NCBI GenBank assembly: GCA_035518635.1
Contig: DATIXI010000041.1
Span: 13,017-77,016 of the forward strand
From: Gaiellaceae bacterium
Lineage (GTDB): Bacteria; Actinomycetota; Thermoleophilia; Gaiellales; Gaiellaceae
Direction: 5' to 3'
DNA: 64,000 nt
Made by a program: the position numbers and the translations under genes. Each line of letters opens with the position of its first letter. Within the stretch, counting starts at the first letter, position 1. Below the pieces are notes generated by a model, which saw only the letters and a list, made by a program, of their open reading frames with translations, did not search any database and had not been told where the DNA came from. Shown here piece after piece: positions 40,424-45,357 of the stretch.

Positions 40424-40459
40424 GGCAACAGGCCCGTCACGGCCAGGTAACGGTTTCGC
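40424..40459 (-). promoter_or_regulatory. Shared 36-nt cis element, copy S1 (40 nt upstream of the PD40-repeat gene)
   Basis: Gene-direction sequence GCGAAACCGTTACCTGGCCGTGACGGGCCTGTTGCC. Confidence 0.55.
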
Positions 40460-40474
40460 GACAGATTCCGCGGC

Positions 40475-41983
40475 TCAGCGCGAAGGCGTGAACGCCGCGC
40501 CGTCGGCAAAGCCGGGGTCGCCGCCCCAGACCAGCAGCGAACGTCCAGTCCACACGCCGACGGGGTCGAGGCGGCCGCGCAGCGGCGCCTGTGGAAGCGC
40601 CGACCATCTGTCGGCCCTCGGGTCGTACGCGAGGCCGTGAGGGGGAATCACGAAGCGTCCCGGGTTGCCGGTCTCGCCGCCCCAGAGAAGGAGCTGCTTC
40701 CCGGTCCAGGCCACTGCTGCCCTGGCCCGGCCGGTGTCCATCGGGGGGAGCGCTCGCCAACGGTTCGCCACAGGGTCGTAGGCGAAGCCGGTTGCCGGCG
40801 CGTTCCTCCCGCCGACGACGAGGAGCTCGCTTCCGTCCCAGACGGCGGTGGCACCCGACCGCGCCTCCGGCATGGATGCGAGCCGCCGCCAGCCGTTCGT
40901 CCCCGGGTTGTACGCGGCCGTGCGCGCGCCGGAGACGACGACGAGCTCGCGCCCGGTCCAGGCCCCGGCCGAGGCGGGGCCGCCGCGCAGCGGCGCCGGC
41001 GGCAGGCTGCGCCAGTGGTCCGTTGCGGGCCGGTAGGCGGCGGCGCCGTTGCCGGTCCAGCCGATCAGCTCGCGGCCCGTCCAGACGGCCACCGCGGGTG
41101 CGAGCGCTGCGGGCGGCGAGGCAAGTCCCCTCCAACGGCCCGTCCCGGGATCGAACGCTTCCAGAGCGCCCCTCGTCCAGACCAGCAGCTCCTTGCCCGT
41201 CCAGACCGCGCGGAACCCTCCCCGGCCCGGAGGCGGCTGCAGCCGGCGCCAGGCGTTGATGCTCGGGTCGTAGGCCGTGAAGACGGGTGCGTTCCCGACG
41301 CGCCCGAGGACGAGCAGCTCCCGGCCCGTCCAGACGCTCGCGCGATTCGTTGGCGCAGCGACCGGCGCTCGGGCCAGAAGGTGCCACGTCCCCGGCAGCG
41401 GCGGTGCGAGCGGGCCGAGCGTCGCGTAATCGCTGCGGCCGACCGGATGGTCGAGCACGACGCCCCCACCCGAGGAGACGTCGACAGGGGAGCCGTCGAG
41501 CTCGAAGCGAACGGCTTTGACCGTCGGGAACTGCGTGAGCGTGTAGACGACCTGGGCGAGACGGAGCTGCAGAGAGCGGGCGCTTGCGCTTGCCTCGTAG
41601 TTCGATGTGAGGTCGACCTTGGCGACCCGGTTTGCGATCGTGACGCCGAGCAGGCGCGTCCCGGACGGGATCGCTGTCGTGAGGCCGGCTGTTCGCTCGG
41701 CCGGGGTCGGTCCGGCGAGGAGCGCTTGAGCGGCGGCCGTCGCGACGCGCGGCGTGGGCCTGTGCGTTCGAAGTGCCTCCACGAGCCGGCCGTGGTGCGT
41801 GAACCAGACCTCGAGAGAGCGGGAGCTCGACAGCGCTCCCGTGGGCTGCGCCGCCTGGGTGGAGGTCGCCTGCCGCGGTGGCTGCCCGAGGGAGACGGCG
41901 TTGTCCGATCCGCCGCCGGAGAGCAAGAGCCACACAGCGACGCCCACTGCCGCGAGAGCTGAGGCTGCGAGCAGTGCCTTCAC
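40475..41983 (-). CDS. Membrane-anchored GerMN domain + Kelch-like beta-propeller protein
   Basis: N-terminal anchor VKALLAASALAAVGVAVWLLL. GerMN-like segment (LEVWF..., ALLAGPTPAERTAGLTTAIPSGTRLLGVTI..., VAKVDLT, VYTLTQFPTVKAVRFELDG). Then about 6 repeats of AVWTG.ELLV.GG...AYDP....WR.L. The start (GTG 41983) is uncertain. Confidence 0.7.
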   Translation of the reverse strand: MKALLAASALAAVGVAVWLLLSGGGSDNAVSLGQPPRQATSTQAAQPTGALSSSRSLEVWFTHHGRLVEALRTHRPTPRVATAAAQALLAGPTPAERTAGLTTAIPSGTRLLGVTIANRVAKVDLTSNYEASASARSLQLRLAQVVYTLTQFPTVKAVRFELDGSPVDVSSGGGVVLDHPVGRSDYATLGPLAPPLPGTWHLLARAPVAAPTNRASVWTGRELLVLGRVGNAPVFTAYDPSINAWRRLQPPPGRGGFRAVWTGKELLVWTRGALEAFDPGTGRWRGLASPPAALAPAVAVWTGRELIGWTGNGAAAYRPATDHWRSLPPAPLRGGPASAGAWTGRELVVVSGARTAAYNPGTNGWRRLASMPEARSGATAVWDGSELLVVGGRNAPATGFAYDPVANRWRALPPMDTGRARAAVAWTGKQLLLWGGETGNPGRFVIPPHGLAYDPRADRWSALPQAPLRGRLDPVGVWTGRSLLVWGGDPGFADGAAFTPSR

Positions 41984-42006
41984 GAGGCTCAGACTACGCC
42001 GCGCGC

Positions 42007-43227: not shown

Positions 43228-44550
43228 CTAGAGACGGAACGTGAACCGCGTGCCCTGGCCGGGCTCGCTCCGGACCTGGATCTCGCCGCCGAGCAGCCTC
43301 GCGTTCTCCTGGGCGATCGCGAGCCCCAGGCCCGAGCCGTGCCCTGCCCTTGCCGGATCCGCCTTGTAGAAGCGCTCGAACAGGTGCGGCAGGTGCTCCG
43401 CCGGGATCCCCGGCCCTCTGTCGGCGACTTCGACGAGCGCGCCGCCGTCATCGGGCCGGACCCGGACGTCGACGCCGTCGCCGCCGTGCTCGAGGGCGTT
43501 GCCCACGAGGTTCGACACGATCCGCTCGTACCGCCGCGGGTCGGTCGTCACGGGTGCCTCCTCCGCGTCGAGGCCCACGCGCCCGTCCCATCCGCGCGAC
43601 TGCAGGATCGCCGCCGTGAGCGCGGCGAGCTCAACCTGCTCGTCGTGCACGCTCTCGGCGCCGGCATCGAGCCGGGAGATCTCCATCAGCTCCTCGACGA
43701 GCCGTCGCAGGCGACCGACATCCGAGATCAACAGCTCGGCGGGACGGCGCGACTCCGGAGGCATTCGCTCGAGCTGCTGGGCGAGGAGGGAGGCCTCGCC
43801 GACGAGCCCGGTCAACGGCGTGCGCAGCTCGTGCGCGACGTCCGCCGTGAAGCGGCGCTCGCGAGCCTGCGCCTCGTTCAGCGCTTCGATCTTCGTCTCG
43901 AGGGCCGCCGCCATCTCGTTGAACGCCTGCGCCCAGGCGCCGAACTCGTCGCGCCCCTCGACCGGGAGGCGTGTTTCCAGCAGACCCTCGGCGACGGAGT
44001 GAGCGGCGACACTCGCCTGCGCCACCGGGCGAAGCGTCCGGCGCGCGAGCAGCGCCCCGGCCAGCGCCGCGAGCACGACGACGATCGCGAGCCCGGCTAG
44101 GAGGATGTTGCGCAGGACGATCAGCTCGTGGCGGAGACCCTCCTCGGAGAAGAAGAAGTAGAGGTCCCTCCCGGCGGCCGGCCCCCCGACCACGAGGTAA
44201 TGCGTGCCCGCGACGGTCCCACGCTGATACCCGAGCCGCCCCTCCTGGACGAGCTTCCGCAGCTTCGCCGGCACGGCGGGCAGGCCGACGGAGAAGCTGG
44301 ACTGGAACGTGCGCCCGCGGTCGATCCCGACCGTCTCGAACCCACGCCCTTCGAACGCATTCAGCAGCGCGTCCGAGCTCTCGTAGTCGGGCGCGATCTC
44401 GAGGTTGCGCCGCGCTTGCTGCGCGGACGAGTGCACGGAGTCGGCCCGCAGGTTGTGCCGCACGACGACGTACGAGCCGATCGCGAGCGCGGCAGCCCCC
44501 GCGCCCACCGCGAGCACGAACGCGATCGTCAGCCGGCGGCGAAAGGGCAT
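43228..44550 (-). CDS. Sensor histidine kinase (2 TM, HAMP, HisKA, HATPase_c), MtrB-like position
   Basis: H-box ADVAHELRTPLT, N-box NLVGNALEH, G-boxes DRGPGI and GLGLAIA. ATG 44550 overlaps the regulator stop (ATGA). Confidence 0.85.
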   Translation of the reverse strand: MPFRRRLTIAFVLAVGAGAAALAIGSYVVVRHNLRADSVHSSAQQARRNLEIAPDYESSDALLNAFEGRGFETVGIDRGRTFQSSFSVGLPAVPAKLRKLVQEGRLGYQRGTVAGTHYLVVGGPAAGRDLYFFFSEEGLRHELIVLRNILLAGLAIVVVLAALAGALLARRTLRPVAQASVAAHSVAEGLLETRLPVEGRDEFGAWAQAFNEMAAALETKIEALNEAQARERRFTADVAHELRTPLTGLVGEASLLAQQLERMPPESRRPAELLISDVGRLRRLVEELMEISRLDAGAESVHDEQVELAALTAAILQSRGWDGRVGLDAEEAPVTTDPRRYERIVSNLVGNALEHGGDGVDVRVRPDDGGALVEVADRGPGIPAEHLPHLFERFYKADPARAGHGSGLGLAIAQENARLLGGEIQVRSEPGQGTRFTFRL

Positions 44551-45230
44551 CAGTCGGGGTCGAAGCGGTAGCCAACCCCACGCACAGTGTGGATCAGCTT
44601 CGGCTGCTTCGGGTCGTCTTCGATCTTGGCTCGCAGCCGCTGCACAGCTGCGTCGACGAGCCGCGAGTCGCCGAGGTAGTCGTAGTTCCACACGAGCTCG
44701 AGCAGCAGCTCCCGCGTGAACACCTGCTTCGGCCGTCGCGCGAGCTCGAGCAGGAGCCGGAACTCGGTCGCGGTCAGCTCGATCTCCTCACCCTCGCGCC
44801 TGACGGTGAAAGCGCCGGGATCGATGACGAGGCCGCCCGCGGCGATTACGTGATCGCCCGGGTCGACGGCCGAGCGCCGAAGCACTGCCTTGATCCGCGC
44901 GACGAGCTCCGGCAGCTCGAAGGGCTTCGTGACGTAGTCGTCGGCGCCGAGCTCGAGCCCGACCACGACGTCGTGCAGGTCGGAGCGAGCGGTCAGCATC
45001 ACGATCGGCGTCTGGCTCTCGCGCCTGATCTCGCGACACACCTCGAACCCGTCCAGCGAGGGAAGCATCACGTCGAGGACCACGAGTTCGAACGACCCCT
45101 GCCGAAATTGCAGCAGCCCCTCGCGACCATCGCCGCTCGCAGTCACCCTGAAGCCCGCCTGCTCGAGGCCAAGAGTCGTGATCTCCCGGATCGAGGCATC
45201 GTCCTCCACGAGCAGCAGATGCTCGTTCAC
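44550..45230 (-). CDS. OmpR/PhoB-family response regulator, MtrA-like
   Basis: LLLVEDD, VVLDVMLP..DG, PIVMLTARSD, GADDYVTKPF. Winged helix QVFTRELLLELVW, VQRLRAKIEDDP, TVRGVGYRF. GTG 45230. Confidence 0.9.
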   Translation of the reverse strand: MNEHLLLVEDDASIREITTLGLEQAGFRVTASGDGREGLLQFRQGSFELVVLDVMLPSLDGFEVCREIRRESQTPIVMLTARSDLHDVVVGLELGADDYVTKPFELPELVARIKAVLRRSAVDPGDHVIAAGGLVIDPGAFTVRREGEEIELTATEFRLLLELARRPKQVFTRELLLELVWNYDYLGDSRLVDAAVQRLRAKIEDDPKQPKLIHTVRGVGYRFDPD

Positions 45231-45321
45231 GCGCCAAGCGTAGGCAGCCTCCCCGGCCGTGGCTAGTCGCGGAGTCGAGCGCTCTGGCCAGAGACTTCTC
45301 TTCGCGAGCGTCGTCGCCGTT

Positions 45322-45357
45322 GCGGAACGGTTACGGGCCTGTGACGTCGGTGTTGCC
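45322..45357 (+). promoter_or_regulatory. Shared 36-nt cis element, copy S3 (43 nt upstream of the secreted Cys-containing protein gene)
   Basis: GCGGAACGGTTACGGGCCTGTGACGTCGGTGTTGCC. It also reads as GGAAC-N16-CGTC. Confidence 0.55.

What the first reader, a model, noticed from the sequence alone, without database searches (positions are those of the whole stretch)
40424..45357. A conserved 36-nt element precedes three exported-protein genes flanking the two-component system
Seen in the sequence, read in the direction of the downstream gene. S1 is GCGAAACCGTTACCTGGCCGTGACGGGCCTGTTGCC (40459-40424). S2 is GCAGAACCGTTACGCGCCCGTAACGGGTGCGTTGCG (43215-43180). S3 is GCGGAACGGTTACGGGCCTGTGACGTCGGTGTTGCC (45322-45357). 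In my ungapped manual alignment, 22 of 36 positions are identical in all three. All three have the same orientation relative to their gene and end 40, 51 and 43 nt before the chosen start codon. There are two readings. One is an ECF-type promoter (G/A-GAAC, 16 nt, CG(T/G)(C/G)). The other is a dimeric-regulator operator, because the core is an inverted repeat (C/G)GTTAC-N6-GT(A/G)ACG that is perfect (CCGTTAC/GTAACGG) in S2. Either way it defines a small local regulon: PD40 propeller, Kelch lipoprotein (plus the GerMN protein 23 nt downstream), and the divergent secreted Cys-containing protein. The GTCAC-like half-sites recall what I remember of published MtrA boxes, but I cannot verify that.
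Basis: seen in the sequence. Interest (0 to 1): 0.65.

Follow-up and report, generated by a model that had tools for sequence, protein, structure and literature searches.

The report
Response-regulator promoter boxes of a Gaiellales regulon
The three 36-nt repeats are the cores of about 58-nt promoters built from four evenly spaced binding boxes, most likely for the neighbouring MtrA-like response regulator, and the same design recurs before exported-protein genes in at least 47 uncultured soil actinobacterial (Gaiellales) genomes.

Summary
In detail: S1, S2 and S3 lie at the stated coordinates, share 22 of 36 columns, and are the only such sites in the 64 kb.

The element is longer than described. 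All three copies read GTnGC-N6-GTTAC-N6-GTRAC-N6-GTTGC-N10-(G/C)AG(G/C)AT. That is four 5-nt boxes at an 11-bp period, then a -10-like nAnnnT hexamer at a fixed 10-nt distance. A Shine-Dalgarno site and a start codon follow about 30 nt later.

I found 99 non-redundant copies of the same module, in metagenome contigs and in at least 47 Gaiellales species genomes.
- 46 of the 99 start within a few bases of the stop codon of an orthologue of the window's histidine kinase.
- Others lie 0.3-1.3 Mb from the two-component system on the same contig.
- They precede the same gene families: PD40, Kelch/GerMN and FG-GAP propellers, and DUF6636.

The box letters change in the clade whose regulator has a changed recognition helix.

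The best reading is a promoter activated by the adjacent OmpR-family, MtrA-like regulator, bound as tandem protomers in the geometry of the GlnR activation complex.

The ECF-promoter reading fails because its -10 is not conserved. This is a new member of a known kind. No binding or transcription-start data exist.

The parts
40407..40464 (-). S1 full promoter module before the PD40 gene. Box 1 GTCGC 40462-40458; box 2 GTTAC 40451-40447; box 3 GTGAC 40440-40436; box 4 GTTGC 40429-40425; -10-like GAGCAT 40414-40409. Predicted transcription start about 40402. SD GAAGGAGG, start GTG 40383.
   Evidence: (66.1 bits). An orthologous copy stands before PD40 genes in L004, L063, L098, L147 and L200.
43163..43220 (-). 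S2 full promoter module. It starts 9 nt after the kinase stop codon and precedes the Kelch lipoprotein gene and the GerMN-Kelch gene. Box 1 GTTGC 43218-43214; box 2 GTTAC 43207-43203; box 3 GTAAC 43196-43192; box 4 GTTGC 43185-43181; -10-like CAGCAT 43170-43165. Predicted start about 43158; ATG 43128.
   Evidence: 67.1 bits. 46 of 99 non-redundant modules sit directly after an orthologous kinase gene.
45317..45374 (+). S3 full promoter module before the DUF6636 gene, divergent from the regulator gene. Box 1 GTTGC 45319-45323; box 2 GTTAC 45330-45334; box 3 GTGAC 45341-45345; box 4 GTTGC 45352-45356; -10-like GAGGAT 45367-45372. Predicted start about 45379; ATG 45401.
   Evidence: 59.4 bits. 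Orthologous copies stand before DUF6636 genes in L001-3, L096, L105, L113, L124, L153, L159, L182 and L199.
44550..45230 (-). OmpR/PhoB-family response regulator, MtrA-like; the proposed binder of the boxes.
   Evidence: Pfam Response_reg + Trans_reg_C. NCBIfam best hit is MtrA, 274.7 bits against a cut-off of 300. Best solved structure is M. tuberculosis MtrA 2GWR, E 1.5e-66, with a similar recognition helix, SRLVDAAVQRLRAK against TRLVNVHVQRLRAK.
43228..44550 (-). Sensor histidine kinase (HAMP-HisKA-HATPase), MtrB-like.
   Evidence: NCBIfam MtrB 286 bits against a cut-off of 450. Thousands of homologues in soil metagenomes; 'Gaiellaceae bacterium' is among the names given.
42007..43128 (-). 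Kelch-repeat lipoprotein, first gene behind S2.
   Evidence: lipobox LLVAC in the translation.
40475..41983 (-). GerMN (Germane) + Kelch propeller protein, 23 nt after the Kelch gene and probably co-transcribed from S2. Its architecture is LpqB-like.
   Evidence: Weak LpqB match over the GerMN part only. In distant relatives the gene after the post-kinase module is a GerMN+Gmad2 lipoprotein.
39019..40383 (-). PD40 beta-propeller protein with a signal peptide; target of S1.
45401..45865 (+). DUF6636 secreted protein; target of S3.

Best explanation
Each copy is the upstream half of a regulator-dependent promoter. Four 7-nt units (consensus YCGTKRC, cores GTnGC, GTTAC, GTRAC, GTTGC) are spaced exactly 11 bp apart, which is one helical turn. 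A -10-like hexamer (G/C)A(G/C)(G/C)AT follows exactly 10 nt after box 4, and there is no -35 hexamer.

If the hexamer occupies -12 to -7, the boxes lie at about -60, -49, -38 and -27. This is the layout in which four head-to-tail protomers of the actinobacterial OmpR-family regulator GlnR activate RNA polymerase, with the last site downstream of the -35 position.

I infer the following chain. The phosphorylated MtrA-like regulator encoded at 44550-45230 occupies the boxes as two tandem dimers. It recruits the sigma-A holoenzyme. Transcription starts about 7 nt after the hexamer and gives a 5' UTR of roughly 20-27 nt.

The kinase and regulator would thereby switch on three units in the window: the Kelch lipoprotein gene with the LpqB-like GerMN-Kelch gene (S2), the PD40 propeller gene (S1) and the DUF6636 gene (S3). 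In relatives they would also switch on further secreted propeller proteins elsewhere in the genome.

Shown here: the sequence architecture, its conservation, its orientation, its linkage to the two-component system, and co-variation of the boxes with the recognition helix.

Inferred: binding by this regulator, activation rather than repression, the number of protomers, and the transcription start.
For: (1) Architecture. All three window copies and the orthologous copies read GTnRC-N6-GTTAC-N6-GTVAC-N6-GTTGC-N10-SAGSAT.

(2) Unselected features co-occur. Of 169 hits to the three-box core in all fetched DNA, 111 also have box 1 (GTnnC) and nAnnnT exactly 10 nt after box 4. 48 have neither, and those come from unrelated taxa. 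Only 10 are mixed.

(3) The logo of 84 non-redundant sites shows conservation at positions I did not select on. These are a pyrimidine before each GT, A at hexamer position 5 (71/84), and GG after the hexamer.

(4) Orientation and position. 87 of 99 non-redundant strong sites are followed by SD + start. The distance from the hexamer's T has median 30 nt and interquartile range 27-33.

(5) Linkage. 46 of 99 begin right after the end of an orthologous kinase gene, 42 of them within -2 to +17 nt of it. 3 are divergent from the regulator gene and 2 lie upstream of it (L002, L003 and L120: autoregulation).

(6) Action in trans. The PD40 copy lies about 545 kb from the two-component system on contig CAWEYY010000003 (L147 against L090/L113). 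Sites are 1.29 Mb apart on chromosome OY970337.1 (L151, L185) and 288 kb apart on CAWGEA010000003.

(7) Co-variation. Regulators with helix GDSRLVD(A/V)AVQRLR keep GTTAC/GTGAC/GTTGC boxes even at 67-73% identity (L108, L135, L142, L194). The clade with GESHLVDVAIGRLR has GTGAG-N6-GTGAT-N6-GTGAG-N6-GTTGG-N10-CACAGT in the same place.

(8) No canonical -35/-10 promoter exists anywhere in 40300-45500.

(9) Precedent.
- S. coelicolor MtrA consensus (G/T)T(G/A)ACC-n5-GT(G/T)ACn, with two sites at -69..-53 and -43..-27 of whiI (PMC5650626).
- AfsQ1 GTnAC-n6-GTnAC (PMC6988585).
- GlnR a-b-a-b boxes (PMC10704036).
- The GlnR activation complex, with four head-to-tail protomers and the b2 site downstream of the -35 element (PMC10235972).
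Against: - There is no binding experiment and no mapped transcription start. No RNA run holds the window. Metatranscriptome contigs laid on a relative cover the target gene body but not the promoter.
- The hexamer never has T at -12 (0 of 84), which is unusual for sigma-A promoters.
- The spacer between boxes 1 and 2 is RGAA(C) in 80 of 84 sites, and it stays so in the clade whose boxes changed. The tandem-regulator model does not predict this.
- Boxes 2 and 3 with their flanks also form a dyad (CCGTTAC..GTGACGG), so head-to-head binding at the centre is not excluded.
- The co-variation rests on essentially one clade switch.
- In Streptomyces, other OmpR-family regulators (GlnR, AfsQ1) read nearly the same boxes.
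Regulon size and the conservation of those letters are therefore not independent estimates.
Confidence: 0.7

Rival explanations
1. ECF-sigma promoter. RGAAC between boxes 1 and 2 is the -35, and C-G-(T/G)-(C/G) 16 nt downstream is the -10. It would be read by the SnoaL-fused ECF sigma at 35553-36524 or by another ECF sigma.
For: RGAAC is very strongly conserved: A at the two A positions in 80/84 and 84/84 sites. It persists in the clade whose boxes changed. S3 reads GGAAC-N16-CGTC, a textbook ECF signature. An ECF sigma gene lies about 4 kb away in the window and in L004, L098, L130 and L200.
Against: The T of the would-be -10 is present in only 7 of 84 sites, and orthologous sites interchange CGTC, CGGC, CGGG and CCGG. 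Conservation continues through box 4 and a fixed-distance nAnnnT, which an ECF promoter would not need. The element does not match the ECF41 signature TGTCACA-n16-CGTC (PMC3426412). The ECF gene is absent from nearly all other loci that carry the element, whereas the two-component system is present in most.
Confidence: 0.05
2. The boxes are read by a different OmpR-family regulator of the same organism, such as a GlnR or AfsQ1 equivalent or a paralogous MtrA, and not by the adjacent one. Alternatively, several regulators compete for them.
For: GTnAC-n6-GTnAC is the published consensus for AfsQ1 and for S. venezuelae GlnR. MtrA competes with GlnR at the same boxes in Streptomyces (PMC6988585, PMC10704036).
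Against: The module starts at the stop codon of this kinase family in 46 of 99 cases and sits before the regulator gene itself in some genomes. Box letters co-vary with this regulator's recognition helix. None of about 100 downstream genes is a nitrogen-assimilation gene; they are secreted propeller, DUF6636 and GerMN proteins.
Confidence: 0.12
3. Operator for a dimeric regulator that binds the central inverted repeat CCGTTAC-N4-GTRACGG, possibly as a repressor.
For: The dyad is perfect in S2. Its flanks are enriched on both sides: CC before box 3 in 61 and 52 of 84 sites, GG after box 3 in 51 and 66 of 84.
Against: Boxes 1 and 4 extend the 11-bp direct-repeat series and have no dyad partners. 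A pyrimidine precedes GT in all four units, which fits direct repeats. The exact 10-nt spacing to the hexamer and the lack of a -35 fit an activator that contacts polymerase. The linked regulator belongs to a family that binds head-to-tail (PMC10235972).
Confidence: 0.08
4. A dispersed REP-like or mobile repeat with no regulatory role.
For: There are several copies per genome with a dyad core.
Against: There are only three copies in 64 kb. Every copy is intergenic and points at a gene start about 30 nt beyond the hexamer. Between copies only the motif columns are conserved and the spacers differ. Orthologous copies are kept in at least 47 species genomes.
Confidence: 0.01

Closest known systems
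MtrA boxes of the MtrAB-LpqB system (Streptomyces coelicolor, Mycobacterium tuberculosis)
   Same: - Direct repeats of GT(G/T)AC-type half-sites at an 11-bp period (6+5+6).
- Two such sites, giving four half-sites, span -69 to -27 at whiI (PMC5650626).
- The regulator here is most similar to MtrA.
- The gene order is regulator, kinase, then a GerMN-containing exported protein.
- In mycobacteria an accessory lipoprotein, LpqB, modulates MtrB (PMC5487470).
   Different: - Regulator and kinase score below NCBI's MtrA and MtrB equivalog cut-offs. The accessory protein shares only the GerMN domain with LpqB.
- In Streptomyces mtrAB-lpqB is one operon with its promoter at mtrA. Here a separate four-box promoter sits directly after the kinase stop codon.
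- Targets are secreted PD40, Kelch and FG-GAP propellers and DUF6636, not the replication, division or development genes described for MtrA.
GlnR boxes and the GlnR transcription activation complex (actinobacteria)
   Same: Four 5-nt sites at an 11-bp period (gTnAc-n6-GaAAc-n6-GtnAC-n6-GAAAc). They are bound by four head-to-tail protomers, the most downstream site lies between the -35 position and the -10 element, and the -35 is non-optimal (PMC10704036, PMC10235972).
   Different: GlnR is an orphan regulator that controls nitrogen metabolism. Here the element is linked to a kinase-regulator pair and to envelope proteins. The boxes do not alternate a/b types, and the conserved GAAC lies out of phase with them.
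AfsQ1 sites of the AfsQ1/Q2 system (Streptomyces coelicolor)
   Same: The consensus GTnAC-n6-GTnAC equals boxes 2-3 here (PMC6988585).
   Different: AfsQ1 sites are described as two repeats, not four. AfsQ1 does not regulate its own operon directly, according to that review. Its targets are antibiotic and nitrogen genes.
Pho box of PhoB (Escherichia coli)
   Same: From my own knowledge, not checked here: 7-nt direct repeats plus 4-nt spacers at an 11-bp period, replacing the -35 hexamer and lying 10 bp upstream of the -10 hexamer.
   Different: The half-site sequence and the regulon differ. The spacers there are A/T-rich throughout, whereas here only the first spacer is A-rich.

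Membership tests
OmpR/PhoB-family tandem direct-repeat site (MtrA/GlnR/AfsQ1 type) | Half-sites repeated in direct orientation at an 11-bp period | tested here: met
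   Four units at exactly 11 bp in all three window copies and in 84 non-redundant relatives. A pyrimidine precedes GT in every unit.
OmpR/PhoB-family tandem direct-repeat site (MtrA/GlnR/AfsQ1 type) | Half-site core GTnAC | tested here: met
   Box 2 is GTTAC and box 3 is GT(G/A/C)AC. Boxes 1 and 4 are the GTnGC variant.
OmpR/PhoB-family tandem direct-repeat site (MtrA/GlnR/AfsQ1 type) | A winged-helix (Trans_reg_C) response regulator is genetically linked | tested here: met
   Pfam Trans_reg_C in the regulator at 44550-45230. 46 of 99 modules abut the kinase gene of the same operon.
OmpR/PhoB-family tandem direct-repeat site (MtrA/GlnR/AfsQ1 type) | The regulator physically binds the boxes | not testable with these tools
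   This needs EMSA, footprinting or DAP-seq. The only indirect support is co-variation of the boxes with the recognition helix.
GlnR-type four-protomer activation geometry | Four sites, the last one between the -35 position and the -10 element, and a weak or absent -35 | tested here: inconclusive
   The sequence geometry fits. Box 4 ends 10 nt before nAnnnT in 111 of 114 clade sites, and no -35 is found. However, the transcription start is not mapped.
MtrAB-LpqB three-component system | Regulator reaches the NCBIfam MtrA equivalog cut-off | tested here: not met
   274.7 bits against a cut-off of 300. MtrA is still the best-scoring family.
MtrAB-LpqB three-component system | Kinase reaches the NCBIfam MtrB equivalog cut-off | tested here: not met
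   286.2 bits against a cut-off of 450. The match covers model positions 104-488 only.
MtrAB-LpqB three-component system | Third gene is LpqB | tested here: not met
   LpqB model 39.7 bits against a cut-off of 802, over the GerMN part only. The architecture (GerMN + propeller, exported) is analogous.
ECF-sigma-dependent promoter | Conserved -35 GGAAC-like motif | tested here: met
   RGAAC is conserved between boxes 1 and 2.
ECF-sigma-dependent promoter | Conserved -10 CGT(C) 16-17 nt downstream of the -35 | tested here: not met
   T at that position in 7 of 84 sites, and orthologous sites vary. The ECF41 signature TGTCACA-n16-CGTC is absent.
ECF-sigma-dependent promoter | Co-occurrence with the ECF sigma gene | tested here: not met
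   An ECF homologue lies in the same locus only in the window, L004, L098, L130 and L200.
REP-like dispersed repeat | Many copies with no bias in orientation or position relative to genes | tested here: not met
   Three copies in 64 kb. 87 of 99 are followed by SD + start at 27-33 nt.

The most novel reading that the evidence does not exclude
These promoters would be two-input devices of an ancestral MtrAB-LpqB-like envelope circuit. A phosphorylation-dependent MtrA-like regulator would activate as a four-protomer array, a mode so far shown structurally only for the orphan GlnR. The invariant, out-of-phase RGAAC between boxes 1 and 2, which survives the change of box specificity, would be read by a second factor: the alpha C-terminal domain of RNA polymerase or an ECF sigma. 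The system would feed back positively on its own LpqB-like GerMN partner and on a clade-wide set of secreted beta-propellers.
Probability: 0.12. Interest if true: 0.6.

Novelty: new member of a known kind. Interest (0 to 1): 0.4.

Why it matters
Gaiellales are abundant soil and wetland actinobacteria with almost no cultured members and no experimentally defined regulons. This gives a precise, testable cis-element: a 58-nt model, an exact geometry, a candidate regulator and a target list. It belongs to an MtrAB-LpqB-like system, which in mycobacteria and Streptomyces governs cell-envelope and division functions.

The internal promoter at the kinase stop codon appears across lineages down to about 41-45% kinase identity. 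This suggests that separate, regulator-driven control of the GerMN accessory protein is an old feature of this family.

The finding also offers a second natural system, with a cognate kinase, in which to test the four-protomer activation mode described for GlnR. It is not a new kind of mechanism.

Tried and rejected
- **Leaderless start or upstream ORF at the ATG inside (C/G)ATGG.** Rejected. The ATG is in frame with the downstream gene for S1 and S3 but not for S2. The G after AT is only 61/84, and many sites read GATC, GGCT or CGGT.
- **Small ORF between the regulator-proximal module and the regulator gene in L002 (33 codons, GTGA overlap).** Its ATG is ATC in L120, so it is probably not real.
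- **Canonical sigma-70 promoter or intrinsic terminator scan of 40300-45500.** None was found.
- **Transcription-start evidence.** No RNA run holds the window. Metatranscriptome contigs laid on relative L014 include two exact 151-nt contigs inside the target gene. Nothing covers 7220-7540, where the promoter lies, so the result is uninformative.
- **ECF41 signature.** Not present.
- **GlnR a/b parsing using the conserved GAAAC as a b-site.** Rejected because GAAC abuts box 1 and lies out of the 11-bp phase.
- **Recent duplication as the cause of similarity among S1-S3.** Rejected because only motif columns are shared (32 of 63) and each copy has its own orthologues in other species.

Full report
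**Observation.** The three sequences are present exactly as quoted. They share 22 of 36 columns without gaps, where about 3 are expected at 70% G+C. They end 40, 51 and 43 nt before GTG 40383, ATG 43128 and ATG 45401. A degenerate core pattern finds only these three places in the 64-kb window, against 0.05 expected. A weight matrix of the full module scores them 59-67 bits, and nothing else exceeds 8 bits.

**Genes.** Pfam confirms the gene calls.
- Minus strand: an OmpR-type response regulator (44550-45230); a HAMP-HisKA-HATPase kinase (43228-44550); a Kelch lipoprotein (42007-43128); a Germane+Kelch protein 23 nt further on (40475-41983); and a PD40 protein (39019-40383).
- Plus strand: a DUF6636 protein (45401-45865).
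- About 4 kb away: an ECF sigma with a SnoaL-like tail (35553-36524).

**Anatomy.** The conserved element is longer than 36 nt. All three copies therefore read GTnGC-N6-GTTAC-N6-GTRAC-N6-GTTGC, four boxes at exactly 11 bp. Exactly 10 nt after box 4 comes GAGCAT, CAGCAT or GAGGAT, followed by GG. A Shine-Dalgarno sequence and the start codon follow. A scan for canonical -35/-10 promoters finds none in 40300-45500.

**Relatives.**
- The kinase has thousands of homologues in soil and wetland metagenomes. One named source is a Gaiellaceae MAG, and JGI labels many of them MtrB. The window itself is found in wetland metagenomes.
- Contigs encoding 85%- and 74%-identical kinases keep the order regulator, kinase, Kelch, GerMN-Kelch. 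They carry the same module at the same places. L001-3 carry an extra copy in front of the regulator gene itself.
- Of those 169, 111 also carry two features that the search did not require: box 1, and nAnnnT exactly 10 nt after box 4. 48 carry neither and come from unrelated taxa such as Roseovarius, Bacteroidia and Rickettsia. Only 10 are mixed. The hits thus fall into real sites and chance sites.
- By my count of accession prefixes, the real sites come from 47 assemblies. All are labelled Gaiellaceae, Gaiellales, Actinomycetota or uncultured Actinomycetes.

**Logo.** In 84 non-redundant sites the following are conserved although not selected for:
- a pyrimidine before each GT, so the unit is a 7-mer, YCGTKRC;
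- the first spacer, RGAA;
- A at hexamer position 5 (71/84);
- GG after the hexamer.

The letter that would be the T of an ECF -10 is T in only 7 of 84.

**Position and orientation.** Of 99 non-redundant strong sites, 87 are followed by a Shine-Dalgarno sequence and a start codon. The distance from the hexamer's T has median 30 nt and interquartile range 27-33. 46 begin right after the end of an orthologous kinase gene, 42 of them within -2 to +17 nt of it. 3 are divergent from the regulator gene and 2 are upstream of it. 19 lie elsewhere in a locus that holds the system, and 29 lie in 8-kb blocks without it.

**Action in trans.** On long contigs the unlinked sites are far from the system.
- The PD40 copy is about 545 kb from it on CAWEYY010000003.
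- Sites are 1.29 Mb apart on chromosome OY970337.1.
- Sites are 288 kb apart on CAWGEA010000003.

The PD40 gene, adjacent to the system in the window, keeps its module when it lies half a megabase away. This argues for a trans-acting factor, not a local quirk.

**Targets.** The downstream genes fall into a few families: PD40 (21), Kelch/GerMN (20), an unannotated secreted family (19), DUF6636 (16), a 65-68-residue protein (11 or more), FG-GAP with PASTA, and others. Nearly all have signal peptides.

**Which factor?** The linked regulator is OmpR-family.
- Its best NCBIfam model is MtrA, at 274.7 bits, just under the cut-off of 300. The kinase's best model is MtrB, at 286 against 450.
- Its best solved relative is M. 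tuberculosis MtrA (E 1.5e-66). The recognition helices are similar: SRLVDAAVQRLRAK against TRLVNVHVQRLRAK.
- Published sites for this group are direct repeats at an 11-bp period. They include S. coelicolor MtrA, (G/T)T(G/A)ACC-n5-GT(G/T)ACn, with two sites at -69..-53 and -43..-27 of whiI; AfsQ1, GTnAC-n6-GTnAC; and GlnR, gTnAc-n6-GaAAc-n6-GtnAC-n6-GAAAc.
- The cryo-EM structure of the GlnR activation complex shows four head-to-tail protomers on four sites. The last site lies downstream of a non-optimal -35 and touches sigma region 4 and the beta flap.
- If the hexamer here is -12 to -7, the boxes lie at about -60, -49, -38 and -27, which is the same geometry.

**Co-variation.** Sorting kinase-anchored loci by divergence shows that the geometry persists while the letters change with lineage.
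- Loci whose regulator keeps the helix GDSRLVD(A/V)AVQRLR keep GTTAC/GTGAC/GTTGC, even at 67-73% regulator identity.
- The clade with GESHLVDVAIGRLR has GTGAG-N6-GTGAT-N6-GTGAG-N6-GTTGG-N10-CACAGT at the same place after the kinase gene.
- Further out (41-46% kinase identity) GTGAC-N6-GTTAC-N6-GCGAT appears. L040 has GTTAC-N6-GTTAC-N6-GTGTG-N6-GCAAT-N10-GATAAT.
- In these distant loci the gene behind the module is a GerMN+Gmad2 lipoprotein.

The ancestral unit therefore seems to be regulator, kinase, internal promoter, GerMN lipoprotein. This recalls MtrAB-LpqB, where LpqB modulates MtrB. It differs in the separate promoter, and the proteins fall below NCBI's equivalog cut-offs.

**Rivals.**
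- *ECF promoter.* S3 happens to read GGAAC-N16-CGTC, but the -10 is not conserved. Conservation extends well beyond where an ECF promoter would end. The ECF gene travels with the element only where PD40 synteny is kept.
- *Another OmpR-family regulator, or competition among several.* This cannot be excluded from sequence. It is disfavoured by linkage, co-variation and the lack of nitrogen genes among targets.
- *A dimer on the central dyad.* This is possible for boxes 2-3, but it does not explain boxes 1 and 4 or the fixed spacing to the hexamer.
- *A REP-like repeat.* Excluded.

**Open points.**
- No transcription start or binding data exist.
- The hexamer never has T at -12.
- The RGAAC spacer is as conserved as the boxes, lies out of phase with them, and survives the change of box specificity.
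- The co-variation is essentially one evolutionary event.
- The genome scan was truncated, and its pattern fixed three boxes, so those letters' conservation is partly circular.

**Verdict.** The regulon and MtrA-like readings are supported, the ECF reading is not, and the inverted-repeat geometry is revised to four direct repeats plus a -10 element. This is a new member of a known kind: an MtrA/GlnR-type tandem-box activator promoter, here in an uncultured lineage.

Noticed in passing
window 45231-45318; L002 9090-9320: Relatives L001-3 and L120 carry a second four-box module pointing at the regulator gene (autoregulation). The window lacks it. About 145 nt between S3 box 1 and the regulator start are missing relative to L002, and the remaining 3' part is still alignable. 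L199 also showed no second module there.
   Followed up: partly
L001 11395-11598; also L007, L015, L062, L094, L095, L119, L120, L131, L140, L144, L161: A conserved 65-68-residue ORF (…RELA(S/A)R…HPYAYAA, no Pfam hit, no signal peptide) is the first gene behind the post-kinase module in many relatives. It is absent from the window. L063 keeps only a 3' remnant of it.
   Followed up: partly
all sites; in the window 40457-40452, 43213-43208, 45324-45329: The spacer between boxes 1 and 2 is RGAAC(C/G) in nearly all sites and stays so in the clade whose boxes changed. With box 2 it forms the palindrome AAC-S-GTT. This is unexplained.
   Followed up: partly
L088 about 7470-7413 (-) and L167 about 4493-4550 (+), both Roseovarius: GTCAT-N6-GTTAC-N6-GTAAC-N6-GTTGC, the same four-box spacing, lies about 100 nt after a kinase gene that is 33-35% identical, in an alphaproteobacterium. 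It is conserved between two species.
   Followed up: no
window 35553-36524 (-): An ECF sigma with a SnoaL-like C-terminal domain (NCBIfam TIGR02960 and PRK08241, both above cut-off). It lies next to a Na+/H+ exchanger gene (37412-39022, +). The trio PD40, exchanger and ECF sigma is syntenic in L004; the ECF homologue also lies near the PD40 module in L098, L130 and L200.
   Followed up: partly
L009, L013 and other post-kinase sites: In several lineages box 1 overlaps the last codons of the kinase gene (…CCC GTG ACC…), and the reading frame stays open across the module. The promoter is thus packed against or inside the 3' end of the kinase gene.
   Followed up: no
L120 about 361-304 (-), L190 about 3941-3998 (+), L001 9126-9163 (+): Rare copies have a 1-nt change in a spacer: N11 or N9 before the hexamer, and N5 between boxes 3 and 4 in L001 where L002 has N6. 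These are either assembly errors or tolerated variants.
   Followed up: no
L200 about 6119 (-): The closest relative of the window (regulator 97% identical in the adjoining block L199) has an additional core match in front of the GerMN-Kelch gene itself. In the window that gene has no module of its own.
   Followed up: no
L116, L149, L186 (Amycolatopsis); L139, L146 (Arthrobacter); L189, L193 (Ruegeria): Some chance-class hits to the three-box pattern are conserved between species of one genus. They lack box 1 and the hexamer, and may be sites of other regulators.
   Followed up: no
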